60,451 nucleotides of DNA from a virus: IMG/VR virus record IMGVR_UViG_3300043449_000416, positions 1 through 60,451 of that record; one strand, written 5' to 3'. Position numbers and translations under genes: made by a program. Positions 1 to 60,379 of this stretch are shown in pieces (positions within the stretch are counted from its first letter, which is position 1; every line of letters starts with the position of its first letter). Under the pieces are notes generated by a model. The model saw nothing but the letters and a program-made list of their open reading frames with translations. It ran no database searches and was not told the origin of the DNA.

Positions 1-126
1 TTACTTCTGGACGCACAGTGTTTGTATTTGCGGAACGCGCTATCGTATCCTGCAATAGGACATCATTTAGTGGAGAGCTGTTCGCCCGACGTACTCGTTC
101 TTGGAGATTAGGTAGCCCTTCGCGCC
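1..126. repeat. Terminal redundancy: nt 1-126 are identical to nt 60326-60451 (circular/permuted genome or assembly overlap)
   Basis: Direct comparison of the first and last lines of the window; an ORF reads in frame through the repeat. Confidence 0.85.
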
Positions 127-817
127 CCGATAGTTCGAAGCTAGGCGTAGTCATTTCAGTGAACGACGGAAGTTGGGCCGCGTCCACCCTCTCTCCAAAA
201 GACGGCAACCCTTCGCGCCCTGCGTAACGCTCGAACACAGGAGGTAAATTATATGGCTGCGTATCGGGCGGGAATACCGACGCGGTCGGTTCTCTATAGG
301 AAGGGTTTACGGCGGTGATACTATCGCCAACAGGCTCCATACCCATCATGCGACTACGCTCAGCACGCTGCTCCACATTGGCTATGACGCGAGCCGCCCC
401 TTCTTCCCCAAGGGATTCGAGGTACTCATCCACACTCATACCCAGCTTGTTGGCATAGGCAATCACAGCGGGGTCAGTCTTAACCTTGTCTCCCTTAGCC
501 ATCTTCTTGACCGGCCCGCCAGCGTACATAGCCTGCACGCCTGTGTTCTGCGCCATGTCAGTGCTCGGGGCTAGGGCTCGCGCCATATCAGCGATACCAC
601 CCTGCGGGACTCCTGCAGCTGCGATAGCCTCTTGGGCCACCGTACCTTGGTCGCCTTTGGCATTCTGCGCGGTGAAGTCGTCCTTCATGCGCTTGCGGCG
701 CATGATTTCCCCAAGAACAAGAAACTGCGGGGCGCTACCCGAAGGTGTCTGCATTTCCCGCACGAGCTGGTCTTGCGAGAAGTTTTTCAACTGATCTTGG
801 AGTTGGACGATGTTCAT
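1..817 (-). CDS. 5' part of a virion protein gene split by the window junction (ATG at 817-815, continues past nt 1 into 60379..59282; about 619 aa in total)
   Basis: Manual minus-strand translation from the ATG at 817 is open to nt 1 (MNIVQLQDQLKNF...GGPVKKMAKGDKVKT...) and runs in frame into ...LQDTIARSANTNTVRPEV, the N-terminus of ORF 59282..60379. TAATG overlap with the stop of the upstream 412-aa ORF. Confidence 0.55.
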   Translation of the reverse strand, partial: MNIVQLQDQLKNFSQDQLVREMQTPSGSAPQFLVLGEIMRRKRMKDDFTAQNAKGDQGTVAQEAIAAAGVPQGGIADMARALAPSTDMAQNTGVQAMYAGGPVKKMAKGDKVKTDPAVIAYANKLGMSVDEYLESLGEEGAARVIANVEQRAERSRMMGMEPVGDSITAVNPSYREPTASVFPPDTQPYNLPPVFERYAGREGLPSFGERVDAAQLPSFTEMTTPSFELSGREGLPNLQERVRRANSSPLNDVLLQDTIARSANTNTVRPEV

Positions 818-2055: not shown

Positions 2056-2525
2056 GGTAGATTTTCCCTGTACTGTTCGAGGGTCTCATGGTGCGTAAAG
2101 AAGCCCCGGACTTCCATGCTAACCGACTGCATGTAGTCCCGCCCCTTACATATATAGATAACATATGCAATGATCTCTGCATACCAGTCGCGAAGGACGT
2201 AGGAGAACACTCGGTCGTTTGCCGAGCCCTTCTCCAGCTTGTTGGCATCGAGCCAAGCGTTGATCCCTGTCACGATGATTGGAATCAGCTGGTGCTTGTA
2301 CTTATCAAAGAACGGGTTGAGAGGCAGCTCGGTCAGAGCGACAAAAAGCGTGCGGGCAATGTCTGCGTCGGTGACGGGCTTGTCCTTGTCGATGAGGTCG
2401 TCGAAAACCTCGCAGATGTCGCCAAACTGACGGATGAACCAGATGGCGTTCATATCGCCGGTCCACTCTACGAGCTTAGCGTCGCGTAGCTTCCGCCACT
2501 CTTCGGTGTCAAACTCAGGAGTCAT
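2052..2525 (-). CDS. Hypothetical protein (157 aa)
   Basis: ORF with 4-nt start/stop overlaps to both neighbours in the late operon. Confidence 0.5.
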   Translation of the reverse strand: MTPEFDTEEWRKLRDAKLVEWTGDMNAIWFIRQFGDICEVFDDLIDKDKPVTDADIARTLFVALTELPLNPFFDKYKHQLIPIIVTGINAWLDANKLEKGSANDRVFSYVLRDWYAEIIAYVIYICKGRDYMQSVSMEVRGFFTHHETLEQYRENLP

Positions 2526-3598
2526 GCGGCCACCCGTTTACGCAGTTCAGCCGGTGCCTTTGGTCCGGCCCCGTTCACAGCGGATAAGAATCCACCCCCG
2601 AACTTCCTCTCAAGTGCATCAGTAGCATCTTTGCGAAGCACAAACTCGCCATCAGCTAGGAGCACATCTTGTTCCCCGTCAATCGTAGCAGGCACCTTGT
2701 CATCTACACCAGAACCGTCGCCGGGACCGCGGACCATGCCGTTTTCGCCGTTGGCAAAGCGCTCGCGGGTATCATCGAATTCGCCAGACTTCACGGAGTT
2801 TACCAGATCGCGCAGGGCAGACTTGCCGTACTTGGCCAAGAACTTACCGAGGGCAATTTCAGGCTGCGGATGCTGCCCCTTGATGGCAGCGATAGCCTCG
2901 ACGATTTCGGTCTTCTCGTTTGGCTTTTTGACGTCCCCGCCTTTGGCATAGGGGAGCGCGCCTGTATCTCGGTAGGCTAGAATGTCTTCGTATGAATACG
3001 GTCGTCCGATGCCATAATTAAACTCAGGATCGATGCCGGGACGATACCCCAGCGGAGGAGTTAGCTGGACGCGCGGAATAGGTTTCATCTCTATGTCGGC
3101 AGCGATGGGCTTGGCGGCGGTAGGTTTTATTGTTGGGGTTGGAGTAGCCAATGCACCTCCGATCTGTGACCCAATACCCTGCGCAGAGCTCATAAAGTTC
3201 ATACCGTTACGGATTCCACTGCCTAGTGCTCCACTGCCAAAGAACCCCGAATTAGCTGCAGGTTGCGGGGGCATAAGGGAGCTAATACCGCCCGCCGAGC
3301 TAAGCGGGGTGCCTGTCGTCATCGCATTTGCCCCGGTACCAATAGCGCTTTGCCCGGGCATCGGTTGCTGTAGTGCGCCACCCGCAGTGCTGCCCATAAG
3401 CCCGCCGAGAAGCTTGCCACCTAAGAAGGAGCCCAGTCCTGCCTTGAGTCCCGCACCGAGGTCTCGTTGCTCGATGGCTGTCCCAAGGCCTTGACCAACA
3501 GCCCCCGCAATCAGCGGAGTTAGTGAAGCAAGGCCCAGCGCGCTGCCAATGGCGGGGGCGAAGGCGGACCCGAGAAAGCCCAAAATCATAGGAAGCAT
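2522..3598 (-). CDS. Putative internal virion / ejection protein (Gly-rich, hydrophobic N-terminus)
   Basis: 358-aa ORF; N-terminal hydrophobic Gly/Ala-rich segment (MLPMILGFLGSAFAPAIGSALGLASL...), extended Gly-rich low-complexity region; sits in the structural arm. Confidence 0.45.
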   Translation of the reverse strand: MLPMILGFLGSAFAPAIGSALGLASLTPLIAGAVGQGLGTAIEQRDLGAGLKAGLGSFLGGKLLGGLMGSTAGGALQQPMPGQSAIGTGANAMTTGTPLSSAGGISSLMPPQPAANSGFFGSGALGSGIRNGMNFMSSAQGIGSQIGGALATPTPTIKPTAAKPIAADIEMKPIPRVQLTPPLGYRPGIDPEFNYGIGRPYSYEDILAYRDTGALPYAKGGDVKKPNEKTEIVEAIAAIKGQHPQPEIALGKFLAKYGKSALRDLVNSVKSGEFDDTRERFANGENGMVRGPGDGSGVDDKVPATIDGEQDVLLADGEFVLRKDATDALERKFGGGFLSAVNGAGPKAPAELRKRVAA

Positions 3599-6919: not shown

Positions 6920-7064
6920 AATCTTCAAACTCCTCTTGTTTGGCGTCAGCCTGAGCCGCTTTTCTGCCACCAAGCCAGCTAGCTGCTAGCGCGGCAAGGA
7001 CAAGACCAATACCTATAGCCCAGAGTTTTAGACGCACAAAGATCAACGGTCGCCCTCTGCCCAC
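6828..7064 (-). CDS. Candidate i-spanin / small membrane protein with charged C-terminal tail
   Basis: 78 aa; N-terminal TM helix (LWAIGIGLVLAALAASWL) followed by a charged helical tail; adjacent to the endolysin. Confidence 0.35.
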   Translation of the reverse strand: MGRGRPLIFVRLKLWAIGIGLVLAALAASWLGGRKAAQADAKQEEFEDYAETRRRMDEVGRMSDADAAHDWLRERGKH

Positions 7065-12767: not shown

Positions 12768-13055
12768 CTATAGCTTGCGAATGGCGTCAGCGAGTTGTAG
12801 ATGGCCCGCCTGTACGAGCGCATTATACACAGTTACACGGTCGTTGGTAACTGCCTCTTTCATGTAGTGGGTAAGCACATGGGTGATGGCTGCGCGATAG
12901 GCTTTTGCCTGCTCACGAATAGCCGGATGAGCGTCTTCTGAGACGTTAATAATCTTGGTTGCGCAGAGTTCTGCGAGCTCCTCGGGTGTATGTCCCCGAC
13001 CCTCGGTAGTCGACACCGATACGATGCCGGGCAAAGCGGACCCCATAAACATCAA
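12768..13055 (-). CDS. Hypothetical protein (95 aa)
   Basis: ORF with coupled overlap to the downstream gene. Confidence 0.4.
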   Translation of the reverse strand: MMFMGSALPGIVSVSTTEGRGHTPEELAELCATKIINVSEDAHPAIREQAKAYRAAITHVLTHYMKEAVTNDRVTVYNALVQAGHLQLADAIRKL

Positions 13056-13702
13056 CCAACTCCAGACATCTGCCCGTCGCGGTAGTCGTCCCGCTTGGAG
13101 CGTAAATCAATGCCAAAGAGCTGCGCCATGGCTTCCATATACCGGTTTGTGTAGAGCTGTAGCATATCAGCATCCCCCTTTAGATAGGTATACGCTTCAA
13201 CGAGCGAACCATACAAGAGGGCAGTCTCGGCGTTAGTTCCGAGCCACGAGGTGCCTGTATCCACGATAGACGGTGGATCGTAATAGTAATGCAGCTCAAC
13301 GGTATAGGCCGCGTTCGGCGTAGGGCCAAGAATGAAGTTGCCCTCGGTCACCCCAGTTTGATCACCGTCAAACTGCGCGTAATACTTTGGCAATCCCTGC
13401 GTCGTCGGGCCCGGGTAGGCCTCGCGGATGAAGTTCACATCCTTATCGTAGAGGTAGCTGTAGTTCCCAGAACCATCAACAACGGCCATAGAGAACACTG
13501 ACAAGAAATCAGAAGGCCGGGCAAGATATTGATTGCCCAGCGTCGTAGCAGCGGTAGCGTTCTTACGCAGTTCTGGGATCTGCACTGAGCGGTAGATGCG
13601 CTCCTCAGCCTGCCGAACAAACGTAGGGATGTTAGAAACAAAGGAGGTTTCCTGAGTCTCGAGATAATCCTGTAGTGCGGCGGTGAGTTGCGTATAGTTC
13701 AT
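13052..13702 (-). CDS. Hypothetical structural protein (216 aa; possible head-tail adaptor)
   Basis: ORF in the head-tail joining region; no diagnostic motif recognised. Confidence 0.4.
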   Translation of the reverse strand: MNYTQLTAALQDYLETQETSFVSNIPTFVRQAEERIYRSVQIPELRKNATAATTLGNQYLARPSDFLSVFSMAVVDGSGNYSYLYDKDVNFIREAYPGPTTQGLPKYYAQFDGDQTGVTEGNFILGPTPNAAYTVELHYYYDPPSIVDTGTSWLGTNAETALLYGSLVEAYTYLKGDADMLQLYTNRYMEAMAQLFGIDLRSKRDDYRDGQMSGVG

Positions 13703-13705
13703 CTA

Positions 13706-14059
13706 TCAGCCGTTCTTGCTAAAGTTACCGCCCTTGGTGGCTGCGCCCATACCGCGAGCCTTACCGCCCATAGCCATGCGAGCTTCTTTTTTCTCCATGG
13801 GCATGGATTCCTTGCCCTCGTGCTTCATCATTGCGGCCTTGGACTTGTACATCTCCTTGCCGCCGTACTCAGAGATTTTACCACCCATAGCCATCTTACC
13901 AACCCCATCGGCAGCAAAGGCTGGGACTTTCTTGCCGCCTTTTTTAACCATTTTAAGCTTTCCGCCAGCAGCCATGCCGTGAGCCTTGCCCTTCATCATG
14001 GTGCCATCAGGCATCTTGTGCACTGCGCCGCCCTTGGCTTTAGTCATGCAGTTCGCCAT
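13706..14059 (-). CDS. Lys/Gly/Met-rich low-complexity basic protein (117 aa)
   Basis: Repeated KxxGGK / MAMGGK motifs (HGMAAGGKLKMVKKGGKK...ARMAMGGKARGMG). Confidence 0.45.
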   Translation of the reverse strand: MANCMTKAKGGAVHKMPDGTMMKGKAHGMAAGGKLKMVKKGGKKVPAFAADGVGKMAMGGKISEYGGKEMYKSKAAMMKHEGKESMPMEKKEARMAMGGKARGMGAATKGGNFSKNG

Positions 14060-14069
14060 CTCGATCTCC

Positions 14070-14381
14070 TTACGATGTGACCACAGTCACGGTTCCAACA
14101 GACCCTACCATATCCTGAATAGGGTTCCAAACAGGATTCCAACCAAAGAGCCCGTCCCCCGGGGAGTAGTCTGGGCGTGGGTTCTGCAGAGCCTGCGGAT
14201 CATTGATCTTCACACGCCCCAAGAAGTTCTGGGGTTGGTCAGGGTCAACAATATCGCGGCCCACTCGAAAGCCCGTCTTAACGCCGTTTTGATACTCCCA
14301 GACGAGGTCTGAGAGTTTATAGGTACGCCCACTGCGGTCGCAGATGCCGAGGGCTTTACTTCCCCGTGCGTATGCGGGCAT
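14070..14381 (-). CDS. Hypothetical protein (103 aa)
   Basis: ORF with coupled overlap to the upstream gene. Confidence 0.45.
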   Translation of the reverse strand: MPAYARGSKALGICDRSGRTYKLSDLVWEYQNGVKTGFRVGRDIVDPDQPQNFLGRVKINDPQALQNPRPDYSPGDGLFGWNPVWNPIQDMVGSVGTVTVVTS

Positions 14382-15067
14382 CAGAAACCCCCAATCATCA
14401 TCGTATTGAACGGCACAAAACTAACCGATGAGCGGTCACGATCTTCGCTTGCGGCCAGTTCAAACTGCTCTTCATAGACCTGCTTCAATGGCAGAATACG
14501 GGCAGCTGCATCGGGCTTCTTCATGGCAATGTAATAGGCCAGACCTGCGACAAGCGCGGGGACAAACCGCGGAGGGATATTAGTGGTATCCGCGCCGATG
14601 CCCGAGGCCAATCCATCAATGCCTTTCAGGCGGTAGTAGAATAGGGTGTAGCTTTGAGAGCTGTCGGGTGTAGGCCACAGCGTAACTGTCGTGCTCGTCG
14701 CTAGCCGCTGCACAAAAATCTGAGTCGGGCGACCCGTGATCTGCTTGTTAGTCTGCTGGGCATAGGTCGACACGGAAATGCGCTCAAGTGCGGTGTCCGC
14801 CTGCGCAGTGCCGGTTCCAGTACGCATCTGATGCTCGATAATATCAATCGTGCCCGTCGGCAGAGTATAGGTCGCAGTTCCTGCTACCAAGGCAAGCGTG
14901 CCCGCCTCAATGGTAAACAAGTTCAAGCCTCGGTTAGCCCACTCGAGTGTCATAAGATTCAGAGACCGGCGAGCCGTCTTTAGGTCATACCCCGAACGCA
15001 TCTCCAGCCCAGCCCGCTCAAAGGCCTCTTCAAAGAGTTCCGGTAGATCGGGTACGATGACGGCCAT
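14381..15067 (-). CDS. Hypothetical structural protein (228 aa)
   Basis: ORF in the structural arm. Confidence 0.5.
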   Translation of the reverse strand: MAVIVPDLPELFEEAFERAGLEMRSGYDLKTARRSLNLMTLEWANRGLNLFTIEAGTLALVAGTATYTLPTGTIDIIEHQMRTGTGTAQADTALERISVSTYAQQTNKQITGRPTQIFVQRLATSTTVTLWPTPDSSQSYTLFYYRLKGIDGLASGIGADTTNIPPRFVPALVAGLAYYIAMKKPDAAARILPLKQVYEEQFELAASEDRDRSSVSFVPFNTMMIGGF

Positions 15068-15070
15068 GAT

Positions 15071-15451
15071 TTAGTCCCTGAATTTTGCGGTCTTCTTCGC
15101 AATGCGTTTCGGCTGGGCCACGAACTGCTTGCCCTTGGCAGTGCCCTCGCGCTTGGCTCGAGTAGTAGCAGCATACTCCGCAGGGCTCAGCGCGTCACGT
15201 GCCTTTTTCGGGAGGTAGCGCTCGCCTGTCTTTCCAGAGGGCTTGCCGCTCTTTGTCCCCCAGTCCTCTTTTCCCCACTTACTTAGGGATTTCTGAGCGG
15301 CGGTCTTCTCACCTGAATACCCGCCGCCCTTTTCTTTGTAGATTTTCCCAGCGAGTTGCATGGCCCGGGCGGAATGTTTCCCGCCCATCTTGGCCTTGGC
15401 TTGCACCTTGGACTGTTCCCATAGCTTCTCGTTGGTACGACCCATGATCAC
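15071..15451 (-). CDS. Basic Lys-rich protein (126 aa)
   Basis: Lys/Gly-rich (KMGGKHS...KEKGGGYSGEKT...SGKPSGKTG...); part of the small-basic-protein cluster. Confidence 0.45.
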   Translation of the reverse strand: MIMGRTNEKLWEQSKVQAKAKMGGKHSARAMQLAGKIYKEKGGGYSGEKTAAQKSLSKWGKEDWGTKSGKPSGKTGERYLPKKARDALSPAEYAATTRAKREGTAKGKQFVAQPKRIAKKTAKFRD

Positions 15452-15453
15452 TT

Positions 15454-15590
15454 AAAGCCCTTTGAGCACTTCGCTGCGCGGGCGCAGTCAGCCGGATATC
15501 CGCACTGATTGCAGGGTGTAAACTGAGGAGCCTGCTCCACAGTTTCTGCTTTTGGCGGAGTTTCCATCTTTGTGGGCTTCTTGGCCATCA
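15454..15590 (-). CDS. Small Cys-containing protein (about 46 aa), possible zinc ribbon
   Basis: Manual translation MAKKPTKMETPPKAETVEQAPQFTPCNQCGYPADCARAAKCSKGFK; not in the ORF track (below its size cutoff). Confidence 0.3.
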
Positions 15591-16142
15591 GTACATCTTC
15601 CCTTTGGTGTTGCCCTTCATGCAGCAGCCGTCGCCGCGGGTCATGCCGCCCTTAGCCATTTTCTTGACAACGCCACCCTTTTTCATGGGCATAGCTCGCT
15701 GCATTGTCTCGGGCGCGCTACCCATCATGCGTGTAGGTGTAGCCTGAGCTGCTTGAGCTGCTTGCATTGCCATAGCTGCCCGTAGGTCTGACTGCATTGG
15801 TGGCATCGGAGCCATCACGCCAGAGAGGGCCGGTCTGGGCCCCGCAGTACCTTGTATGCCTCCGGGTTGTGATACTAGGGCACGGTCCGGCATTCCGCCG
15901 CGCTCCATTTGGCGCATACCGCGCTCTTGTTGGCGCTCCATTCGGCGCATGTCGCCCTGACTAAGACCGTTAGGACCGCCCATAGGGCCATTAGGACCGC
16001 CCATAGGACGACCACCCGGCATAGGAGCACCGGGGCCACCCGGCATAGCTGATGCCATGCCGCCAAACATCATTTTCTTGACCTTCTTTGGCTTCGACTT
16101 CGGGGCAGTGGCGATCTGCTTCCCCATATTTCCACGGTTCAT
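15588..16142 (-). CDS. Met/Gly/Pro-rich low-complexity protein (184 aa)
   Basis: Repeats PMGGPNGPMGGPNG and MRRMERQQERGMRQMERGGM; C-terminus KKGGVVKKMAKGGMTRG. Confidence 0.45.
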   Translation of the reverse strand: MNRGNMGKQIATAPKSKPKKVKKMMFGGMASAMPGGPGAPMPGGRPMGGPNGPMGGPNGLSQGDMRRMERQQERGMRQMERGGMPDRALVSQPGGIQGTAGPRPALSGVMAPMPPMQSDLRAAMAMQAAQAAQATPTRMMGSAPETMQRAMPMKKGGVVKKMAKGGMTRGDGCCMKGNTKGKMY

Positions 16143-16279
16143 TTCTTTTTCCCTTTCTTGGCTACGCCCTTGATAGAGCCTTTGTTCTCAGCGGCGTAGA
16201 AGACGCGGTCACCGCGCTCTTTGCCATACTGCTTTTCCATAGCCGCCTTAATCTTTTTGCCTTTAGCAGTCAGTGGCAT
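16139..16279 (-). CDS. Small basic protein (about 46 aa)
   Basis: Manual translation MPLTAKGKKIKAAMEKQYGKERGDRVFYAAENKGSIKGVAKKGKKK; ATGA overlap with the downstream gene. Confidence 0.3.
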   Translation of the reverse strand: MPLTAKGKKIKAAMEKQYGKERGDRVFYAAENKGSIKGVAKKGKKK

Positions 16280-16288
16280 GTCAGTACC

Positions 16289-16540
16289 TCAGCAATTCCA
16301 AGCGCGCAGCGAGAGCGCCTTGCGTGTGGGTTTACCTTTTTCATCCTTCATCGGACCGGGCATGCCACTCATGCGGGCGCAGAACGACTTGCGCCGCGCT
16401 GCGTCTTTCGGGGTTTTTGGGTTCGGCGCTGGCGGCTTGAGGTTCATACCCTGAGCCTTGGCGGACGCCCGCCCTTTTGCATTTAGGCCCCCCTTCGGGT
16501 CTTTGCCTTCTTTGCGAGTCCACGCGGGCGTCTTTGCCAT
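16289..16540 (-). CDS. Small basic protein (about 83 aa; start at internal Met MAKTPAWTRK)
   Basis: Lys/Pro/Gly-rich; the 5' extension of the track ORF overlaps the neighbouring gene. Confidence 0.35.
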   Translation of the reverse strand: MAKTPAWTRKEGKDPKGGLNAKGRASAKAQGMNLKPPAPNPKTPKDAARRKSFCARMSGMPGPMKDEKGKPTRKALSLRAWNC

Positions 16541-16544
16541 GGTA

Positions 16545-16820
16545 TTACGACCAGAACAGGGTCTGTGCGGTGACGTTAGTGGCGGTTGCCACGAACGGAT
16601 CAGCCTCAAAAAGAACACCCGTGCCGGGGATAAAGATGTCGTAAGTACCGGCGGCACCAAAATCCATGTCGATCTTAGTAGTTCCGCCACTTCCACTCGT
16701 GAGAGTGACACGCCCAGCACCGCTAAGCGTGACAACAACCATCCTGATCCTTGCGCGACCGATACCTACAGCACCTGTTGCGGTTACCCGTTTGGAACTT
16801 ACGTCATATTCATCGGCCAT
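16545..16820 (-). CDS. Hypothetical protein (91 aa)
   Basis: ORF in the structural arm. Confidence 0.4.
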   Translation of the reverse strand: MADEYDVSSKRVTATGAVGIGRARIRMVVVTLSGAGRVTLTSGSGGTTKIDMDFGAAGTYDIFIPGTGVLFEADPFVATATNVTAQTLFWS

Positions 16821-16832
16821 GTGGGCCTCCTA

Positions 16833-17102
16833 TTAGCTAAGAGCTGCGCCAACAGCAGTGACCCATGCGGAGCCTGTCGAAACAACAAGGCAGTACTCGT
16901 TGTTAGCCACACCGTTGTCGTTGATGAGACGGACCTGACCGGCGTTGCCCGCGGCAGCCGTCGGCAGTGAGGCGGTTGCGATAGCGGTGAGCTTGACGAA
17001 GCTGGTGACGGTCACGTCACCAGAGACAGCGCCGATGAAGCCGTTCTCAGACGTTACCGGTCCCGAGAAAGTTGTAGAAGCCATGGAAATACCCCTTTGC
17101 AC
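16833..17102 (-). CDS. Hypothetical small structural protein (89 aa)
   Basis: ORF downstream of the HNH and capsid genes. Confidence 0.4.
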   Translation of the reverse strand: MQRGISMASTTFSGPVTSENGFIGAVSGDVTVTSFVKLTAIATASLPTAAAGNAGQVRLINDNGVANNEYCLVVSTGSAWVTAVGAALS

Positions 17103-17201: not shown

Positions 17202-17771
17202 CTAGAGCCTGTTACTTTTGGAGCTGTTTTCTATGTGCGTGAGAATCTGTAAGTTCCACGGAACGTGAAGACCGCAAACGACTTCGGAGCGGAGTGGTAT
17301 AATGTGGTCGACGACATGCTTGATTCCGGTGTCGCGGGTAAGCCTGCGTGCCGCGAGATACATCTCACGAATTTGTAGCTTGTGCTCCGCGGTCAACCAC
17401 GGGGGCGAAGCGTTTCTAAGTCGCCGACGCCTGACGTTAACACCCAGCTGGACGTAGTCTGGGTTTCTAGCCTTCCACGCCCGCTTGTATTCACGGGTAG
17501 CTTCGGCAGACTGACTGGTGGCGCGGGCTAAAACTAACTCGCGATTGCGCTCATAATACCGACGACCCGCTGCCTTGGCAGCGTCGGATTTAGGCTGAGA
17601 TTTCCGACGCTCGTTATCTGTGGCCCAGTCCTCTTTCATGCACTCCACACAGGCACCCTTGGTTTTGCGTGGGGCTACGTGCCCACGCACGCAGGGCTCG
17701 CCGGTGAAGTAGTGTGTTGCGCCAAGAGCTTTGGCTTCTTTGCGGGTCTTTGGATATTCCATTTGCGCCAC
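17202..17771 (-). CDS. HNH endonuclease (free-standing, with N-terminal Cys-rich motif)
   Basis: C-terminal HVDHIIPLRSEVVCGLHVPWNLQILTHIENSSKSN is an HNH signature; N-terminus has a CxxxH...CxxC cluster. Confidence 0.75.
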   Translation of the reverse strand: MAQMEYPKTRKEAKALGATHYFTGEPCVRGHVAPRKTKGACVECMKEDWATDNERRKSQPKSDAAKAAGRRYYERNRELVLARATSQSAEATREYKRAWKARNPDYVQLGVNVRRRRLRNASPPWLTAEHKLQIREMYLAARRLTRDTGIKHVVDHIIPLRSEVVCGLHVPWNLQILTHIENSSKSNRL

Positions 17772-17878
17772 CTGTGGTTTTTGACACGGGTAACGTAAAC
17801 GGCGTAATGGCCGCGGTCAAGCGCAAAAGAAAAGGCCCGCCGAAGCGGGCCTTAACTCTGCTAAGTGCTTGATTTTCC

Positions 17879-18784
17879 TCAAGCGCCGGGAGAAGCGTAC
17901 ATCGCCAGCGGGTCGGAAACGCCGAAACTGTAGCGCTCCCTTGCTTTGTACCTCACGTTGCCAGTGTCAAAATCCCCGTCCATTGAAGTCGACATAGCGA
18001 CGCGAACGAAGTGCTTCATACCATTCGGGATGTCGGTGGTGAGGTACCACGCGTCATTGTCCGTCAGGTAGTGGTTGACGCGATACCCCTCGGGGATGGA
18101 CCCGTTGTTGTTAAGCGCGTTGATGTCGTTATCGGCGGTGCCGACACGCAGCTCGGTCTGCAGCAGACGAGTTGCAACAAACATCAGGCTCGGCGGAACA
18201 ATCAGCTTGCGCGGACGGGCAGCGATCAACAGACCACGTTCGTCTTTGTAAGCAGCGATGTCGATAACCGCTTGTTCCAGCGAGGTCTCGTTGAGGTCGG
18301 TGTCAACCGAAGGACGGTTGGCGTTAGTGCCGCCCGCAACGGTAGGGTGCGCGTTGTTGAACAAAGTTACGCCGTCACCCGAGGTGAAGGTCGTAAAGCC
18401 CGTATTCAGCAGCGAAGCAGCCTTGACCTGCTTGGTGTACGCCATGGCGCGAGCGAGCGCCTTGGTGTAGCGAGCCGAGAGCGAGTCGTACAGGTTGTCT
18501 TCCATAGCTTCTTCGGTGATCGAGAAGCCCATGGCCACCGTCTCGTGATTGTAACGAGCGGTGAACGATTCCTGTGCGTTGTCATACGAGATGGCAGAGC
18601 CTTCCGGTTTCACCGGAGCTGCGCCGAACCCGCTGAGCTTAACTTCCTCTTCAAAGCTACGCTCCGAAGTCTCGGTCTCATAAAACTCAGCATGCTCGTT
18701 TTCGTATTTGCCGTATTCAAGACCGAACAGGGCGTTAAGGCCCGGAAGCAGTTCTTTAAGGGCCTGTGCGCGTGAAATAGCCAT
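17879..18784 (-). CDS. Putative major capsid protein
   Basis: 301-aa ORF directly downstream of the scaffold-like gene; composition and position are consistent with an HK97-fold capsid protein. Confidence 0.5.
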   Translation of the reverse strand: MAISRAQALKELLPGLNALFGLEYGKYENEHAEFYETETSERSFEEEVKLSGFGAAPVKPEGSAISYDNAQESFTARYNHETVAMGFSITEEAMEDNLYDSLSARYTKALARAMAYTKQVKAASLLNTGFTTFTSGDGVTLFNNAHPTVAGGTNANRPSVDTDLNETSLEQAVIDIAAYKDERGLLIAARPRKLIVPPSLMFVATRLLQTELRVGTADNDINALNNNGSIPEGYRVNHYLTDNDAWYLTTDIPNGMKHFVRVAMSTSMDGDFDTGNVRYKARERYSFGVSDPLAMYASPGA

Positions 18785-21239: not shown

Positions 21240-21431
21240 TCAGTCCGCAATAAATCTTTTCTCTAGGTCCTTTACGTCATCGTACATGCGCTGGAGCGCC
21301 GTATATTCCCCGACGCTCCGGCAATAATCCTCATAGCTCTTGGCACCGCCCGTTGCGAGGTGGTGCTCAATGGCTGACTTCTGCTCGTTCAGACCGCGAA
21401 TCATAAAGGCAAAGATGGTATCTTCCATCAC
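21240..21431 (-). CDS. Hypothetical small protein (63 aa)
   Basis: ORF with 4-nt overlap to the portal stop. Confidence 0.35.
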   Translation of the reverse strand: MMEDTIFAFMIRGLNEQKSAIEHHLATGGAKSYEDYCRSVGEYTALQRMYDDVKDLEKRFIAD

Positions 21432-23917
21432 TGGCCCCCAGCGTTAGGCGATTTGCGCGCTTGGAGCAGCCGTGCCGCCTCGATGGCGAGGCGCGTGCCA
21501 TCCATCTGAGCTTTGACATTCTCTTTCGCAGCGTCAGTGGCAAGCTTTGCCATGGTGTTTGCCGCGGATCGGTCGTTCTCGCTCTCGACACGCTCCTGCT
21601 GGATGTAGAGGTTTCCAGCGCTGGTGGCGGCGCTGACCTGCAGTTTCTTGTTGTCGAAGTCGATCTTGTGCTGCAGTTCTTTCTCTTTGATGTCCAACTC
21701 GCGCATCTGGATGATAGTGAGCGGGTCCTGTGCCTGCTGCTCTGCCGTAGCGGCCTGCTGCTCTGCCTGATTCTTGTTGAACAGCTTGGCTGCGGCCTGA
21801 GCAACCATACGGGACAGCTGCACCTCGACTTCCTCGGGCAGCGGCTCGCCCTCGGGCGGCAGCGGAACACCGAGGTTCATCTCGATCTCTTTGCGATACT
21901 GATAGGCAACGTGCTCGGTAATATGCGCCATGGCAGCCCCTTGAATAGCCTGCGCGAAGGGCGACTGGCCGACCATCTGAGCAATCTTCGGGTCCTGCAT
22001 CGCGGCCATGTGGGCAGCAATATGTGCTTCGTGGTCTTGGTAGAGGAACGCTTTGACAGGGGACTGCTGCAACAGCGCCATATTCTCGGCCACTGGGTCC
22101 ATGGGCTTCATATCTGCCGGAGACTTAATGATGTCCTTAGCGTCTTGGATGCCCAGCACCTCGAGCATCTGTGAGTGCAGCTTGCCCATATCGTACAGCT
22201 GCGGAGCCTGCTGTGATAACTGCAGCGCGGCCTGATACTGCATGATCCGCTGCGCCATGGTGGCGGCGTTAGGATCAGATACCGGGATTATATCCACGCG
22301 CCCATCAAAGTCCTCGATGCGGTTGAAGTCACCGTCCATCTCGTAGGCATACTGCTCTGGCATGTAGTCATGCACGATCCGCGCGAGGATGCGTAGTTCC
22401 TGCTTCATAGCTGCGTGCAGGCGGGCTTGAACACCCGACATAACCTTCAAACTGCGCTCGAGCAGGGCGAGCGTGGTACCCACCGGTGCGTTTGCACTCA
22501 TGTCACCCACTTGGATGTCAGCCACGGAGCCGATGCGACGGCCTTCCTCAACCACGTTACCCAGCAGGGTATACAGGACGCTCGATGGCTCTTTGTACGG
22601 CATCGGGAACAGGCTCTCGCGGAGCGTACCTCCCGTCACGTCAGCGTCTCTCCACTCACCGGGCATCAGCGGGGTGTTGTCACCCTTGATGCGCAGGCTC
22701 CGGGCCTTGAGGCCCGCTGGGAGGTTAGACAGGGTGCCCGCATCGATGAGCTGCCGCAGGATTGACGTCGCAGACTTAGCCAGACCGCCGATCAGATGAA
22801 TTAGTCCCGTACCGTAGAACCCCATACCCGGCAGGTAGGGGTAGTGGGTGAAGTGCATCAGCTTGCGCTTCTTCGCGTCATCTTCCTTCCAGTTACGGCG
22901 GATAGCGAGAACAGTCCGAGAGGTCTTGTCGATTGTGATGACGTAAGGCCGTGCCACGCCATCCTCATCCTCGAACGGCTCCGGCAGGTCGATGTCCACG
23001 TGCATTTCCAAGAGTGTACGGCGCGGATCATCCTCGAATGTCTGCTCCTCCCCCGCCAGCTCGGCGTATTTCTCCTCGATGTCGGTGAGGTCTTTCTCCG
23101 CATCAGGCAGCTCGACATCGCGGTAGAAGCCAACAACCTGCAGCTCACGGACCTCATTGTCGGTCTTCTTCATCACATGTGTGAACCGTGGGCAGACGCG
23201 CAGGTTAGACGCGCCGTAGGAGACCACGAGGTCCTCAGCAGGAACAAAAATGGATGAGGGGAGCTCTGTGATGGGATCGTAGTATGTCTTCTTGAACGCT
23301 GACCCGGCCAGCGGGAGGCGGAACAGCATCAGCTCCATCTCGTCGCGGTAGTCCGGCATCTCCTCAGTGATGAGGTAGTTCATCTCATTCTGGACGCGGT
23401 TAGCTTGGTCAGCCTTCTCGGGGGTAAGTTTACCCATGATCTTTGTCCGTACCGGCCCCGAGGCGGGCATCAGCTCGCTCATTGCCTGCGCTTGGAACCG
23501 CACCACGGCCTCGGTCAGCATCGGGTGATAGACACCGGAGGCACCGGCCCAAGGCTGCGTGCGGTCCTCGATCTTCATCCCCAGCAAGTCCAAGCCGGTA
23601 ATATAGGCCGACGCCCAGTCCTTGCGGCTCTCACGATCAGAGAGAAAAGATCCAACCAGCTCACTGGCGATACTCTCAAGCTCCCCATCGTCAATGATTT
23701 CGGCGAGGTTGGTGTCGTGGGCGGTCATGTCCGCGCCCGTATCGTCCTCACCATCGCCGAAGTCGACTAGGACCTCACCGGTATCCGCATCGATTTGGAT
23801 TGATGGGTCTTCTTCCGTCGCGATGGATACTTCAATCTCGGTATCGTCCTGCGGCCCGAACTCGAACGGCGTCATCGGCTTCTCGATTGCCATGGCATAT
23901 CCCCTGTAGGTCTCCAC
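21428..23917 (-). CDS. Putative portal protein
   Basis: 829-aa ORF immediately downstream of the terminase gene; size and position are typical of portals. Confidence 0.55.
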   Translation of the reverse strand: METYRGYAMAIEKPMTPFEFGPQDDTEIEVSIATEEDPSIQIDADTGEVLVDFGDGEDDTGADMTAHDTNLAEIIDDGELESIASELVGSFLSDRESRKDWASAYITGLDLLGMKIEDRTQPWAGASGVYHPMLTEAVVRFQAQAMSELMPASGPVRTKIMGKLTPEKADQANRVQNEMNYLITEEMPDYRDEMELMLFRLPLAGSAFKKTYYDPITELPSSIFVPAEDLVVSYGASNLRVCPRFTHVMKKTDNEVRELQVVGFYRDVELPDAEKDLTDIEEKYAELAGEEQTFEDDPRRTLLEMHVDIDLPEPFEDEDGVARPYVITIDKTSRTVLAIRRNWKEDDAKKRKLMHFTHYPYLPGMGFYGTGLIHLIGGLAKSATSILRQLIDAGTLSNLPAGLKARSLRIKGDNTPLMPGEWRDADVTGGTLRESLFPMPYKEPSSVLYTLLGNVVEEGRRIGSVADIQVGDMSANAPVGTTLALLERSLKVMSGVQARLHAAMKQELRILARIVHDYMPEQYAYEMDGDFNRIEDFDGRVDIIPVSDPNAATMAQRIMQYQAALQLSQQAPQLYDMGKLHSQMLEVLGIQDAKDIIKSPADMKPMDPVAENMALLQQSPVKAFLYQDHEAHIAAHMAAMQDPKIAQMVGQSPFAQAIQGAAMAHITEHVAYQYRKEIEMNLGVPLPPEGEPLPEEVEVQLSRMVAQAAAKLFNKNQAEQQAATAEQQAQDPLTIIQMRELDIKEKELQHKIDFDNKKLQVSAATSAGNLYIQQERVESENDRSAANTMAKLATDAAKENVKAQMDGTRLAIEAARLLQARKSPNAGGQ

Positions 23918-59281: not shown

Positions 59282-60379
59282 TTATTCGTCAGCGAAGTTT
59301 GGGACTTCGTCGGCTCCGCCATCCGTAGCTGTAGACCCGTAGAGGATAGTATCCCGAAGCGCCAGTTTGTTATTTAGCTCTTGCTGTACTGCGGCAAGCT
59401 GCATTTCCGCTTCCGGTGTAGTCGGTGGCATGACTGCTGAGTTAGCAATCAACCCATCTAGGCGCTCGATATCTGAATTTATCTGCGTAAGGAGACGCCC
59501 TGTCCCTGCAGATAGACCGAAACCACCGCTATTACTACCTCCGCCACTACCGCCACCAGATGCTGCTTTAGCCCGCGCTGCACGAGACTGCGCAATGGCA
59601 CCTGTGAGCTCGAGTTTTTCTTTGTCGTACTGGTCCCGTGCACTGCGCGCAGCTTCGATACCTTTGAGTCCGGCTTCGCCAAGAGCGCCCCCAAGCGTTG
59701 GCTGTCTGGACGACATAAGGTTCAAGCCTACCTGCGCCAGCGCCAGCCACTTGTCCTGCTCGGCTGCCTTCTCGCGCTTTGACAGTGTATCCATGAGCGC
59801 CTGTTCGTAGGACGATACGCCACCGGCCCCACCGCTAGTTCCACCGCTGGTTCCACCTTGCGACGCGGCAGCGGTTTGTGCTCCACCTTGCGGCGCGGCA
59901 GCTGGCTGTGCTCCAAGCAACGCAGCGCTTTGTGCTGCGAGTAACCCCTGTGGCGCAGCTGCTCCGGGCACTGCAGTAGTCGTAGGCAGCGGTTGAAGCT
60001 TTGGCACTTCGGGTGTGGTACGTCTCGCCTGTTCTGCGGCAATCGCAGCTTGGTCTTCGACAGTACGCCCTCCCATAGCTCCCAAAATAGCGTCAACGTA
60101 AGACCCAGAAGAGCTTAGAGGATCGTATGTAGGCATAACAGGGGCCCCAGAACGACTGACGGCTCTTGGTCCTTGTTGAGATTCCATTGCTGTAGGCAAC
60201 CCTGTCTGCGGTGCTGCGCGTCCCATTTGAGCGGAATACGCCAGTTCTTCACGGTTCTGTCTGGACTGATCCATACCCGGAAGAGCTGCCAGAAGTTCGC
60301 TGATGGACGGTTCCGCGCCAGAAATTACTTCTGGACGCACAGTGTTTGTATTTGCGGAACGCGCTATCGTATCCTGCAA
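59282..60379 (-). CDS. 3' part of the junction-spanning virion protein gene (continuation of 1..817)
   Basis: Track ORF (365 aa) starts on a non-ATG codon inside the terminal repeat; the frame is open upstream and continuous with the ATG at 817; Gly/Ser/Ala-rich low-complexity stretches. Confidence 0.55.
   Translation of the reverse strand: MQDTIARSANTNTVRPEVISGAEPSISELLAALPGMDQSRQNREELAYSAQMGRAAPQTGLPTAMESQQGPRAVSRSGAPVMPTYDPLSSSGSYVDAILGAMGGRTVEDQAAIAAEQARRTTPEVPKLQPLPTTTAVPGAAAPQGLLAAQSAALLGAQPAAAPQGGAQTAAASQGGTSGGTSGGAGGVSSYEQALMDTLSKREKAAEQDKWLALAQVGLNLMSSRQPTLGGALGEAGLKGIEAARSARDQYDKEKLELTGAIAQSRAARAKAASGGGSGGGSNSGGFGLSAGTGRLLTQINSDIERLDGLIANSAVMPPTTPEAEMQLAAVQQELNNKLALRDTILYGSTATDGGADEVPNFADE

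What the first reader, a model, noticed from the sequence alone, without database searches (positions are those of the whole stretch)
13706..16540. Cluster of small, highly basic Lys/Gly/Met-rich low-complexity proteins with a shared KKMAKGG-type motif inside the structural module
Six adjacent ORFs (13706..14059, 15071..15451, 15454..15590, 15588..16142, 16139..16279, 16289..16540) encode Lys/Gly/Met/Pro-rich proteins with repeated motifs (KxxGGK, MAMGGK, PMGGPNG, VVKKMAKGGM). The same motif (GGPVKKMAKGDKV) appears in the junction-spanning virion protein. Such proteins might be DNA-condensing or internal capsid proteins co-packaged with the genome; the cluster is not a standard feature of phage structural modules.
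Basis: seen in the sequence. Interest (0 to 1): 0.6.

Follow-up and report, generated by a model that had tools for sequence, protein, structure and literature searches.

The report
Swappable small basic phage proteins
Six real, conserved genes for tiny, positively charged, probably floppy proteins sit in a fast-changing slot next to the capsid and head-tail connector genes of an aquatic phage. They are assembled from interchangeable short modules, one of them an unannotated C-terminal tail found in thousands of phage proteins. They probably ride inside the virus particle, but that is not proven.

Summary
The six ORFs exist on the minus strand, are basic (pI 9.1-11.4), are predicted disordered, and are under purifying selection against the closest relative, so they are genes rather than GC-rich noise. 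The "shared KKMAKGG motif" holds only for the 117-aa and 184-aa proteins and for a predicted internal virion protein. The other four belong to separate families: DUF6321, a two-module DUF5872-like protein, a 46-aa miniprotein and a Cys4 miniprotein.

The window is a circular genome of about 60.3 kb from an HTVC023P-type podophage. In 37 loci of this family, the gap between the capsid gene and the first head-tail adaptor gene runs from 1.4 to 8.1 kb. It holds 0-8 such basic ORFs, whose modules are fused, split and reshuffled.

KKMAKGG is the front half of a roughly 32-37-residue C-terminal module. That module has 7,761 cluster representatives in public data and no Pfam or PHROG model.

Evidence for virion association is indirect. 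The DUF6321-bearing protein of cyanophage S-SM1 was detected in purified virions. An aromatic-A-x-GG motif recurs in predicted ejection proteins. T7 gp7.3 and gp6.7 are a structural precedent.

Best reading, at about 0.4 confidence: these are accessory internal or portal-channel polycations. Function remains untested.

The parts
16289..16540 (-). o6: stand-alone DUF6321 protein, 83 aa, pI 10.9
   Evidence: Pfam DUF6321 at E=5.5e-27, 94.7 bits against a cut-off of 28.5; also phrog_4689. More than 8000 database clusters match, and the best 120 are 84-94% identical. 40 of 83 positions are invariant. dN/dS is 0.058. The AF2 model has pLDDT 76.8 and three helices, with no fold match.
16139..16279 (-). 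o5: 46-aa Lys-rich miniprotein (28% K)
   Evidence: 650 database clusters at E<=1e-3, nearly all 45-50 aa, with no Pfam family or name. dN/dS is 0.069. Present in 5 of 37 loci.
15588..16142 (-). o4: 184-aa protein. It has a conserved N-terminal module (MNRGNMGKQIATAPKSK..KKVKKMMFGGMA), a Pro/Gly/Met-rich variable centre and a C-terminal TAG module.
   Evidence: Alignment to the 129-aa L002 orthologue shows conserved ends and a centre that differs by in-frame indels. Orthologues of 64-65 aa lack the centre altogether (P0213 and P0237). No Pfam or PHROG hit.
15591..15686 (-). TAG module of o4: MKKGGVVKKMAKGGMTRGDGCCMKGNTKGKMY at the C-terminus
   Evidence: 34 slot ORFs in 18 loci carry the same C-terminal motif. 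A profile finds 7,761 representatives at E<=1e-3. The module also exists as a stand-alone 37-48-aa protein. AF2 predicts no structure.
15448..15588 (-). o3: 46-aa miniprotein with four conserved Cys (C-x2-C-x5-C-x5-C)
   Evidence: The L002 orthologue keeps all four Cys and the KCSKGFK end; dN/dS is 0.22. Similar Cys-rich stretches sit directly in front of the TAG in proteins of L029 and L076.
15071..15445 (-). o2: 124-aa fusion of two modules. The N-half is GGKHSARAMQLAGKIYKEKGGGY. The C-half is phrog_14910.
   Evidence: phrog_14910 at E=7.5e-36 for residues 51-125 and phrog_17747 at E=0.003 for residues 9-45. Pfam DUF5872 scores 21.3 bits, below its 27.5 cut-off. The halves are separate genes in 18 loci and fused in 5. 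dN/dS is 0.030.
13706..14059 (-). o1: 117-aa Lys/Gly/Met-rich protein ending in a TAG variant (RMAMGGKARGMGAATKGGNFSKNG, 13709-13777)
   Evidence: 48% identical over residues 28-110 to a 154-aa L074 slot protein, E=5e-12. The L002 orthologue is 58 aa, with the same PAFAADGVGKM and tag segments. Strong Shine-Dalgarno sequence, taaggag.
1..817 (-). 5' part of a 619-aa predicted internal virion/ejection protein. The motif MYAGGPVKKMAKGDKV lies at 482-529.
   Evidence: Orthologues of 400-720 aa keep MYAGG[PF]VKKM[AK]xG[GD]. One orthologue (L100) carries, read by eye, a lysozyme/transglycosylase-like stretch. The gene lies next to a phrog_4287 'DNA ejection protein'.
59282..60324 (-). 3' part of the same 619-aa gene, joined once the 127-bp terminal overlap is removed
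   Evidence: Positions 1-127 equal 60325-60451. The reading frame is continuous on the circularised sequence.
2522..3598 (-). 358-aa predicted membrane-active internal protein with PYAKGGDVKK at 2924-2950
   Evidence: The N-terminus is hydrophobic and Gly-rich. Orthologues keep PYA[KE]GG. It is one of three GGxVKK sites, against 0.03 expected and 0 of 5000 shuffles.
14381..15067 (-). Head-tail adaptor paralogue A (SU10_adaptor); downstream border of slot S1
   Evidence: Pfam PF24175 at E=5.3e-16. Syntenic in the 36 related loci that hold it.
13052..13702 (-). Head-tail adaptor paralogue B; downstream border of slot S2, which holds o1
   Evidence: Pfam PF24175 at E=2e-27.
17879..18784 (-). Major capsid protein; upstream border of slot S1. 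A terminator-like hairpin follows at 17832-17853.
   Evidence: 65-73% identical to the capsid proteins of HTVC023P, HTVC027P and Pag-Yong1. Terminator-like site, 9-bp stem with 7 GC pairs.

Best explanation
The six ORFs are genuine late genes. They fill a hypervariable accessory slot in the head and head-tail-joining gene block of an HTVC023P-type podophage.

They encode small, polycationic, intrinsically disordered proteins built from a shared pool of short modules:
- DUF6321.
- The two o2 halves.
- The o4 N-terminal module.
- A PAFAADG module.
- A Cys4 knuckle.
- A 32-37-residue C-terminal TAG: MKKGGxVKKMAKGG...R[AG]DG[CI]AxRGKTRGxMx.

Inferred mechanism. The proteins are made together with head and neck proteins and built into the particle, either in the head interior or in the portal/adaptor channel. 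The short conserved peptides (the aromatic-A-x-GG motif and the TAG) act as anchors to a common partner. The disordered Lys/Gly-rich parts lie against packaged DNA. The proteins then leave the particle with, or just ahead of, the genome. This is the arrangement solved for T7 gp7.3, which has a C-terminal anchor and a basic disordered N-part around the DNA end.

What is shown: the ORFs are real genes; they are basic and predicted disordered; the modules are shuffled; the slot is conserved; and one module belongs to a protein found in purified virions of another phage.

What is inferred: virion location for these particular proteins, the anchoring role of the motifs, DNA contact and ejection.
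For: Real genes. dN/dS is 0.03-0.30 against 0.062 for the capsid gene. Starts and stops are coupled with the adaptor gene. o6 and o5 have thousands and hundreds of close homologues respectively.

Disorder. All six fall on the disordered side of the charge-hydropathy plot, with 8-17% order-promoting residues against 24-31% in neighbouring structural proteins. The TAG module scores pLDDT 60.6 with no secondary structure.

Position. The genes lie between the capsid gene and two SU10-type adaptor paralogues. Only a terminator-like hairpin directly after the capsid gene stands out, and no convincing signals lie inside the cluster.

Virion link 1. S-SM1 SSM1_115 (T4-GC119) ends in DUF6321: Pfam E=2.8e-22 and blastp E=1e-16 to o6. 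T4-GC119 is listed as detected with 13 peptide counts in purified virions in Sullivan et al. 2010 Suppl. Table 8, PMC3037559.

Virion link 2. GGxVKK occurs in o4 and in two proteins of the ejection-protein block, 3 observed against 0.03 expected. Its core is conserved in their orthologues.

Virion link 3. In relatives the same slot holds 786-aa and 1118-aa proteins with weak, sub-threshold matches to peptidoglycan-hydrolase domains (SLT 20.0 bits against a 21.3 cut-off; Hydrolase_2 E=0.095). Such domains are typical of ejected proteins.

Virion link 4. In relatives, TAG proteins carry an N-terminal module that PHROGs and GenBank place at the N-terminus of 'virion structural proteins' of jumbo phages.

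Precedent. T7 gp7.3 (99 aa, pI 10.1, K 16%, G 14%) has a C-terminal 15-residue anchor at the adaptor/nozzle junction and a basic disordered remainder around the DNA end. T7 gp6.7 is a core protein.

The TAG is strictly C-terminal: 140 of the best 150 matches end within one residue of the C-terminus.
Against: There are no virion proteomics or structures for any HTVC023P-type phage, so none of the six proteins has been seen in a particle.

The S-SM1 evidence concerns a 495-aa protein whose only significant similarity is to o6. Highly basic proteins can also stick to purified virions.

The slot also carries clearly non-structural cargo: homing endonucleases, an M15 peptidase, holin-like proteins and a glycosyltransferase. 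Position alone therefore proves little.

In other phage types the homologues lie elsewhere in the late region: before TerL in MEP401 and HMO-2011, after the holin in Pag-Yong1, and in a mobile AMG cassette in cyanomyoviruses.

Presence is patchy. TAG ORFs number 0-4 per genome and are absent from 19 of 37 loci. DUF6321 is found in 23 of 37. None is therefore an essential virion part.

DUF6321 is strongly conserved across phages with unrelated virions. That fits a universal partner such as DNA or a host component better than a lineage-specific structural partner.

There is no sequence similarity to T7 gp6.7 or gp7.3 or to any solved structure.
Confidence: 0.4

Rival explanations
1. These are non-virion late accessory proteins, acting as 'moron'-type cargo. 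The polycations work inside the infected cell on a universal polyanionic target: phage or host DNA, RNA, or the ribosome. They might compact or shield DNA or modulate translation. They would lie in this slot only because it tolerates insertions.
For: The slot is a general insertion hot spot with obviously non-structural cargo and homing endonucleases.

Homologues sit at different late-region positions in other phage types, and in cyanomyoviruses they sit in a mobile metabolic-gene cassette.

Presence is patchy.

DUF6321 is very strongly conserved across phages with unrelated virion architectures and hosts, which suggests a partner common to all.

A slot protein in L016 has an ArfA-like KGKGSY stretch (Pfam ArfA E=1.7e-5, just under threshold).
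Against: The one experimental datum available places a DUF6321 protein in purified virions.

The motif is shared with predicted ejection proteins.

No known nucleic-acid-binding or ribosomal domain is detected. The ArfA hit is short, sub-threshold, lies in a compositionally biased protein, and is not in this window.
Confidence: 0.3
2. These are external capsid accessories. The TAG or DUF6321 would anchor disordered polycationic 'hairs' on the head surface, next to the decoration-like proteins encoded just upstream. The hairs would aid adhesion to negatively charged cells or particles.
For: The genes lie directly downstream of the capsid gene and of acidic Gly/Thr/Ala-rich proteins (g89 and g91). 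That family is present in 36 loci and resembles decoration or head-fibre proteins by position and composition only.

Variable copy number and rapid length change in the low-complexity parts are typical of surface-exposed accessory proteins.
Against: No Ig-like, lectin or other adhesion domain is found. The shared motif points to internal or ejection proteins rather than surface ones. Unstructured Lys-rich chains exposed outside would be protease-sensitive, and charge effects are screened in seawater (inference).
Confidence: 0.08
3. These are lysis helpers: cationic peptides that perturb the outer membrane or cell wall at the end of infection, in the manner of 'disruptin'.
For: In relatives the same slot sometimes holds holin-like proteins and an M15 peptidase. 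The proteins are strongly cationic.
Against: No amphipathic or transmembrane segments are present, and order-promoting residues are only 8-17%. The endolysin of this genome lies elsewhere, at 7043-7708. No signal peptides are evident in the sequences.
Confidence: 0.04
4. These are spurious ORFs produced by GC-rich sequence or by the complement of a real gene.
For: Low-complexity composition; long antisense ORFs exist across the region.
Against: dN/dS is well below 1 in the minus-strand frames. Indels are in frame. The families are conserved, with hundreds to thousands of members. Pfam and PHROG models match two of the six.
Confidence: 0.01

Closest known systems
Bacteriophage T7 gp7.3 and gp6.7 (small ejected virion proteins; Zheng et al. 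2024, PMC11784390)
   Same: They are small (99 and 88 aa), basic (pI 10.1 and 9.4) and Lys/Gly-rich, and are encoded beside the portal gene in T7. The slot genes here lie beside the adaptor genes. gp7.3 has a short ordered C-terminal anchor at the adaptor/nozzle junction and a positively charged disordered remainder around the DNA end. gp6.7 bridges portal and core. This is the same design as o1 and o4: a conserved C-terminal peptide with a disordered basic body.
   Different: No detectable sequence similarity. The TAG profile scores no better than shuffles, and blastp gives E>0.1. The T7 proteins are single-copy core genes, whereas the slot proteins are patchy, multi-copy and modular. Virion location is not shown here.
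Cyanomyovirus T4-GC119 'structural protein' (S-SM1 SSM1_115, 495 aa; S-P4 AYR01841, 529 aa)
   Same: It ends in the same DUF6321 domain as o6. It is likewise very basic, Lys-rich and low in complexity, and its length varies from 276 to 2985 nt among 16 cyanophages. It was detected in purified S-SM1 virions.
   Different: Here DUF6321 is a stand-alone 83-aa protein. The other five ORFs show no significant similarity to T4-GC119: the best is o5 against its N-terminus at E=0.088. The phage type (myovirus) and the genomic context (between terminase genes, in a mobile cassette) also differ.
T4 internal proteins IPI, IPII and IPIII with their capsid targeting sequence
   Same: The concept is the same: many copies of small proteins placed in the head at prohead assembly through a short portable peptide, then injected with the DNA (PMC7697877).
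   Different: The T4 signal is N-terminal, about 10 residues long, and is removed by the prohead protease. The TAG is C-terminal. No prohead protease was recognised among the head genes scanned here. There is no sequence similarity.
Pfam DUF6321 and DUF5872; PHROGs 4689 and 14910
   Same: o6 is a clear DUF6321 and phrog_4689 member. The o2 C-half is a clear phrog_14910 member.
   Different: These are families of unknown function, and the literature search found nothing on either beyond one gene-table entry. o2 is below the DUF5872 threshold. o1, o3, o4, o5 and the TAG have no model in Pfam or PHROGs.
Encapsulin cargo-loading peptides (short C-terminal peptides that dock cargo to the inside of an HK97-fold shell). 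Recalled from memory, not tested.
   Same: A short, conserved, strictly C-terminal peptide is attached to very different N-terminal parts, in a virus whose capsid is presumed (not tested here) to have the HK97 fold.
   Different: The sequence motif differs. The attached parts are disordered polycations rather than enzymes. Binding to the capsid is untested.
DNA-condensing basic virion proteins of other viruses (phiX174 protein J, adenovirus protein VII). Recalled from memory.
   Same: Small, highly basic Lys/Arg/Gly/Pro-rich proteins packaged with the genome.
   Different: No homology. For tailed phages with motor-driven packaging, no such general condensing protein is established, and DNA binding is untested here.

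Membership tests
Pfam DUF6321 (PF19846) | Match to the family HMM above the gathering score | tested here: met
   o6 scores 94.7 bits against a cut-off of 28.5, E=5.5e-27, covering profile positions 1-72 of 72.
Pfam DUF5872 (PF19197) | Match to the family HMM above the gathering score | tested here: not met
   o2 scores 21.3 bits against a cut-off of 27.5, E=4.1e-4. It is treated as DUF5872-like only. Its C-half is a firm phrog_14910 member, E=7.5e-36.
Cyanomyovirus T4-GC119 virion protein | C-terminal DUF6321 domain | tested here: met
   o6 against SSM1_115 residues 414-495: 45% identity, E=1e-16. SSM1_115 matches Pfam DUF6321 at E=2.8e-22.
Cyanomyovirus T4-GC119 virion protein | Long basic N-terminal body homologous to the cyanophage protein | tested here: not met
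   o6 is stand-alone. o1-o5 against SSM1_115 all give E>=0.088.
Cyanomyovirus T4-GC119 virion protein | Presence in purified virions | not testable with these tools
   Shown only for S-SM1 (13 peptide counts). No proteomics exists for this phage family.
T7 gp6.7 / gp7.3 small ejected proteins | Sequence homology | tested here: not met
   blastp of the T7 proteins against all slot ORFs gives a best E of 0.17-0.20. The TAG HMM scores them no better than about half of 2000 shuffles.
T7 gp6.7 / gp7.3 small ejected proteins | Small, basic, Lys/Gly-rich, largely disordered, encoded beside portal or adaptor genes | tested here: met
T7 gp6.7 / gp7.3 small ejected proteins | Located in the portal/adaptor/nozzle channel or core and ejected at infection | not testable with these tools
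   Needs virion proteomics or cryo-EM.
T4-type internal proteins (IPI-III) | N-terminal capsid targeting sequence removed by a prohead protease | tested here: not met
   The conserved portable peptide is C-terminal. No prohead protease family was hit among the head-module proteins scanned.
KGG stress-protein repeat (Pfam PF10685). The lead came from memory. | Match to the KGG repeat HMM | tested here: not met
   None of the six proteins matches it in Pfam at E<=1.
Nucleoid-associated / histone-like DNA-binding proteins | Recognisable DNA-binding domain or fold | tested here: not met
Encapsulin-type cargo-loading peptide (analogy only) | Short conserved peptide at the extreme C-terminus of diverse proteins | tested here: met
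   140 of the best 150 profile matches end within one residue of the C-terminus. Proteins range from 45 to 316 aa, and their N-terminal parts are unrelated.
Encapsulin-type cargo-loading peptide (analogy only) | Peptide binds the inner face of the HK97-fold shell | not testable with these tools
   Would need complex prediction or binding assays.

The most novel reading that the evidence does not exclude
The 32-37-residue C-terminal TAG (MKKGGxVKKMAKGG...RADG[IC]AQRGKTRGKM[VC]) may be a portable virion-targeting or anchoring signal of tailed phages, analogous to an encapsulin cargo-loading peptide or to the T4 capsid targeting sequence. The wider aromatic-A-x-GG motif shared with ejection proteins may be part of the same signal. 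On this reading the slot is a polymorphic 'payload' locus. Its exchangeable disordered polycations would be loaded into the head or portal channel and delivered into the host with the DNA. Aquatic phages of many lineages would share this delivery code.
Probability: 0.15. Interest if true: 0.8.

Novelty: new variant of a known kind. Interest (0 to 1): 0.5.

Why it matters
[quoted passage not shown] DUF6321 alone occurs in 513 sequenced phages, mostly cyanophages. Yet none of these small proteins has a known function, and the TAG family (7,761 cluster representatives) has no model in Pfam or PHROGs.

If the proteins are packaged, they would be a widespread and so far overlooked class of internal or portal-channel polycations. 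Their short portable anchoring peptide could be tested directly. It might also be exploited to load foreign proteins into phage particles.

If they are not packaged, they are an abundant class of late-expressed polycations aimed at a universal cellular or nucleic-acid target.

Either way the locus offers a compact, well-delimited system: a conserved slot, defined modules and natural fusion and fission variants. That makes it suitable for working out what small disordered 'dark matter' proteins do in environmental phages.

Tried and rejected
- Near and distant DNA search of the region against 50,697 phage records found only short patches, so no close sequenced relative exists there.
- Sequence searches of five of the six proteins against all PDB chains found no match at E<=1.
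- AF2 of the TAG module gave an unstructured result, so a fold search would be pointless.
- Homology to T7 gp6.7 and gp7.3 was rejected.
- The idea that the five other ORFs are split pieces of cyanophage T4-GC119 was tested. Only o6 matches. The o5 N-terminal resemblance (E=0.088) is not significant.
- tblastn of a 36-aa TAG consensus against the phage collection found nothing, probably because of the short query and the low-complexity filter. A regular-expression scan of six fetched reference loci found only a weak variant in HTVC023P gp51.
- Pfam scans of ten long TAG proteins looked for an enzymatic N-terminal 'cargo' and found none.
- Promoter and terminator scans gave counts no higher than in shuffled sequence, apart from the hairpin after the capsid gene.
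- Tandem-repeat search found only two tiny arrays, so the low complexity is not a long tandem array.
- Literature searches for DUF6321, DUF5872, HTVC023P and Pag-Yong1 turned up no functional or proteomic information on these genes.
- The Walker-A-like string G-x4-GKT in many TAGs was considered and dismissed. It is not conserved in o1 or o4, and a roughly 30-residue peptide cannot be an NTPase (reasoning).
- Spurious-ORF and antisense-gene explanations were rejected.

Full report
**What the window is**

The first 127 bases equal the last 127. The sequence is therefore a circularly assembled genome of 60,324 bp.

The minus strand of roughly 1-27,300 and 52,900-60,451 carries the packaging and virion genes:
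- TerL (24202-26688), which contains an intein.
- Portal (21428-23917).
- GroES.
- Major capsid protein (17879-18784).
- Two paralogues of the SU10-type head-tail adaptor (14381-15067 and 13052-13702).
- Tail genes and an endolysin.
- A block of predicted ejection or internal proteins.
- A 2105-aa polyvalent protein.

The capsid protein is 65-73% identical to those of Pelagibacter phages HTVC023P and HTVC027P and of Planktothrix phage Pag-Yong1. The genome is thus a member of the abundant HTVC023P-type group of aquatic podophages.

**The observation**

I call them o6 (16289-16540), o5 (16139-16279), o4 (15588-16142), o3 (15448-15588), o2 (15071-15445/15451) and o1 (13706-14059).

- All are basic, with pI 9.1-11.4. 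Lys is 8-28%, and Met is about 15% in o1 and o4.
- All six fall on the disordered side of the charge-hydropathy plot. They have only 8-17% order-promoting residues, against 24-31% in the neighbouring structural proteins.
- In a crude whole-genome gene call only one other ORF is similarly basic and K/G-rich.
- They are genes. Against the closest relative (L002), dN/dS is 0.058 (o6), 0.069 (o5), 0.30 (o4), 0.22 (o3), 0.030 (o2) and 0.15 (o1), compared with 0.062 for the capsid gene. Length differences in o4 and o1 are in-frame indels within the low-complexity centres.
- Starts and stops overlap or nearly abut, and o2 ends 3 nt before adaptor A.
- A terminator-like hairpin follows the capsid gene. 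No site inside the cluster stands out, and the site counts equal those in shuffled sequence.

1. The KKMAKGG-type motif is shared by o4 and o1 and, in part, by the junction protein. It is not shared by o2, o3, o5 or o6.
2. o1 is separated from the other five by adaptor A and a 103-aa gene.
3. Once the terminal overlap is removed, the 'junction-spanning protein' and the following 365-aa ORF form one 619-aa gene.

**What each gene is**

- **o6** is a stand-alone DUF6321 domain (94.7 bits against a cut-off of 28.5).
  - It is extraordinarily common and conserved. More than 8000 database clusters match, and the best 120 are 84-94% identical and nearly all 83 aa. 40 of 83 positions are invariant.
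  - It occurs in 513 sequenced phages: mostly T4-like cyanomyoviruses, but also T7-like cyanopodoviruses, pelagiphages and Methylophilales phages.
  - In a survey of 185,579 prokaryotic species genomes it appears only on MAG or SAG contigs of wildly different taxa, which are most simply explained as phage contigs.
- **o2** is a fusion of two modules. Its C-half is phrog_14910 (E=7.5e-36) and its N-half is weakly phrog_17747. Pfam DUF5872 is below threshold. The two halves are separate genes in 18 related loci and fused in 5.
- **o5** is a 46-aa miniprotein with 650 close database clusters and no annotation.
- **o3** is a Cys4 miniprotein conserved in L002.
- **o4 and o1** have no Pfam or PHROG match.

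**The motif**

KKMAKGG is the front half of a self-contained C-terminal module that I call TAG. Its consensus is MKKGGxVKKMAKGG-(1-7 residues)-R[AG][DM]G[CIA][AC]x[KR]GxT[KR]GxMx, followed by the stop codon.

- Among slot ORFs of related loci, 34 proteins in 18 loci end this way, almost always exactly 7 residues after the core pattern. Their total lengths run from 45 to 453 aa and their N-terminal parts are unrelated.
- The module also exists alone, as proteins of 37-48 aa.
- A profile finds at least 2,338 clusters in the 5.8-billion-protein set, none with a Pfam domain or a name.
- The same profile finds 7,761 representatives at E<=1e-3 in the 1.84-billion representative set. In 140 of the best 150 the match ends within one residue of the C-terminus.
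- Canonical members have no Pfam match and no significant PHROG match (best E=0.022). The longer ones carry only low-complexity N-terminal parts.
- AlphaFold2 predicts no structure for the module (pLDDT 60.6, pTM 0.13). It behaves like a linear peptide that would fold only on a partner.
- o4 consists of a conserved N-terminal module, a Pro/Gly/Met-rich spacer that is absent from 64-65-aa orthologues, and the TAG.
- o1 is 48% identical (E=5e-12) to the C-terminal two-thirds of a 154-aa slot protein of L074. It ends in the RGMGAATKGGNF variant of the TAG.

**The locus**

In 37 loci that contain both the capsid and the adaptor A genes, gene order is conserved: capsid, adaptor A, the 103-aa gene, adaptor B, then the next tail genes. 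Two gaps vary:
- Slot S1, between the capsid gene and adaptor A, is 1.4-8.1 kb (median 3.1 kb).
- Slot S2, between the 103-aa gene and adaptor B, is 0-1.9 kb.

The slots hold 0-8 basic K/R/G-rich ORFs (median 5) and 0-4 TAG-bearing ORFs. They also hold acidic decoration-like proteins, HNH and GIY-YIG endonucleases, an M15 peptidase, holin-like proteins and a glycosyltransferase. In two loci they hold 786-aa and 1118-aa proteins with weak, sub-threshold SLT or cell-wall-hydrolase-like matches.

Module-level searches show repeated fusion, fission and recombination:
- o4N+TAG in 3 ORFs, o4N alone in 2, and o4N+PAFAADG in 1.
- PAFAADG+TAG in 5 ORFs.
- o2N+o2C fused in 5 loci and separate in 18.
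- DUF6321 preceded by other modules in L053 and L069.
- Cys-rich stretches in front of the TAG in L029 and L076.

The six window genes are therefore one sample from a shared pool of about ten short modules.

**Evidence bearing on function**

1. In cyanomyoviruses DUF6321 is the C-terminus of T4-GC119, a very basic protein of highly variable length. Supplementary Table 8 of Sullivan et al. 2010 (PMC3037559) lists T4-GC119 as detected, with 13 peptide counts, in purified virions. I take this phage to be S-SM1, since the main text describes the S-SM1 proteome.
2. GGxVKK occurs three times in the proteome, against 0.03 expected, and 0 of 5000 shuffles reached that number. The three sites are in o4, in the 619-aa protein, and in a 358-aa protein with a hydrophobic Gly-rich N-terminus. 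The latter two lie in the block beside a phrog_4287 'DNA ejection protein'. Their orthologues keep MYAGG[PF]VKKM[AK]xG[GD] and PYA[KE]GG respectively. One orthologue of the 619-aa protein carries, read by eye, a lysozyme-like part.
3. In relatives, TAG proteins begin with a module (MPSKSKAQHNFM...) that is the N-terminus of PHROGs annotated 'virion structural protein'. It is also the N-terminus of annotated virion proteins of Rak2-like jumbo phages, and it is 77% identical to phiKZ PHIKZ165.1.
4. T7 provides a solved precedent. gp7.3 (99 aa, pI 10.1) is held by its last 15 residues at the adaptor/nozzle junction, while its positively charged, unresolved N-part surrounds the DNA end. gp6.7 is a core protein. 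There is no sequence similarity, so this is an analogy of design and not homology.

**Evidence against, or neutral**

- No proteomics or structure exists for this phage family.
- The slot also houses non-structural cargo.
- Homologues occupy other late-region positions in other phage types.
- All the modules are dispensable at the family level.
- DUF6321 is conserved across phages with unrelated virions. This argues for a universal partner such as DNA or a host component.
- The DUF6321 model (pLDDT 76.8, three helices) matches no known fold, and none of the five proteins tested matches a PDB sequence.

**Conclusion**

The finding is real but needs re-description. It is not a peculiar repeat cluster with one shared motif. 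It is the local content of a family-wide hypervariable slot filled with modular, disordered polycations.

The most likely role, at about 0.4 confidence, is as accessory internal or portal-channel virion proteins. Their conserved short peptides would anchor them, and their basic disordered parts would contact the packaged DNA. The main rival, at about 0.3, is that they are late intracellular polycations acting on nucleic acids or ribosomes.

The TAG module is a large and apparently undescribed family. Whether it is a targeting or anchoring signal is the most interesting open question, and it can be tested directly by virion proteomics, reporter fusions and complex prediction.

Noticed in passing
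window 1-127 and 60325-60451: The two ends are identical over 127 bp, an assembler-type terminal overlap. The genome is circular or circularly permuted at 60,324 bp. ORFs near the ends are artificially broken if the window is read as linear.
   Followed up: yes
window 24202-26688 (-): The large terminase is 828 aa, against about 530 aa in Pag-Yong1. It contains an intein: Hint, Hom_end_hint and Intein_splicing matches cover residues about 485-791, inserted after the nuclease domain.
   Followed up: partly
window 17202-17771 (-): An HNH/endonuclease VII-like gene lies directly after the capsid gene and its terminator. A homologue was found in only 3 of the 80 related loci, so it is probably a mobile homing endonuclease. 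Relatives carry GIY-YIG or other HNH genes at the same spot.
   Followed up: partly
window 52896-59213 (-): A 2105-aa protein carries an LPD39 domain and a DarB-like C-terminal region. This marks it as a 'polyvalent protein' of the kind thought to be packaged and injected.
   Followed up: no
window 45355-45621 (+): This is the only other strongly basic K/G-rich small ORF in the genome (88 aa), and it lies in the replication module. By eye it resembles slot proteins of L016 and L026, one of which matches part of the HNH_3 model.
   Followed up: no
L016 11160-11960 (266-aa slot protein): It contains the stretch KPKKGKGSYNRKAS, which matches the C-terminal ribosome-binding part of ArfA (Pfam ArfA E=1.7e-5, 24.6 bits, just under the 25.5 cut-off). 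This may be chance in a biased sequence, or a hint of ribosome targeting.
   Followed up: no
L074 3293-3757, L075 10526-10960, L069 11260-11793, L053 2408-2932: Relatives' TAG- or DUF6321-ending proteins start with a module MPSKSKAQHNFMAAVA...KDF. It is 77% identical over 43 aa to phiKZ PHIKZ165.1. It also lies at the N-termini of annotated virion structural proteins of Rak2-like jumbo phages (121Q, PBECO4, GAP32). So a short module is shared between aquatic podophages and jumbo phages.
   Followed up: partly
window 14381-15067 and 13052-13702 (-): Two diverged paralogues of the SU10-type head-tail adaptor are separated by a 103-aa gene and o1. Both are conserved across the family.
   Followed up: no
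L101 (JBIIGF010000001.1, 61,867 bp): A contig binned as an Aestuariivirga MAG from a lake time series carries an 89%-identical DUF6321 gene and has the size of this phage genome. It is probably a mis-binned relative, which hints at a freshwater origin for the window. All 80 listed hits in the genome collection are MAG or SAG contigs.
   Followed up: no
window 16545-17102 (-) and relatives: Two small acidic Gly/Ala/Thr-rich proteins (89 and 91 aa) lie between the HNH gene and o6. Their family is present in 36 loci, with 63-295 aa and often two or more copies. By position they may be head decoration or fibre proteins.
   Followed up: no
o6, TAG variants: Many of these miniproteins end in Cys or have Cys within the last few residues (...RAWNC...RGKMC...GGKC...GGMC). 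No explanation was found.
   Followed up: no
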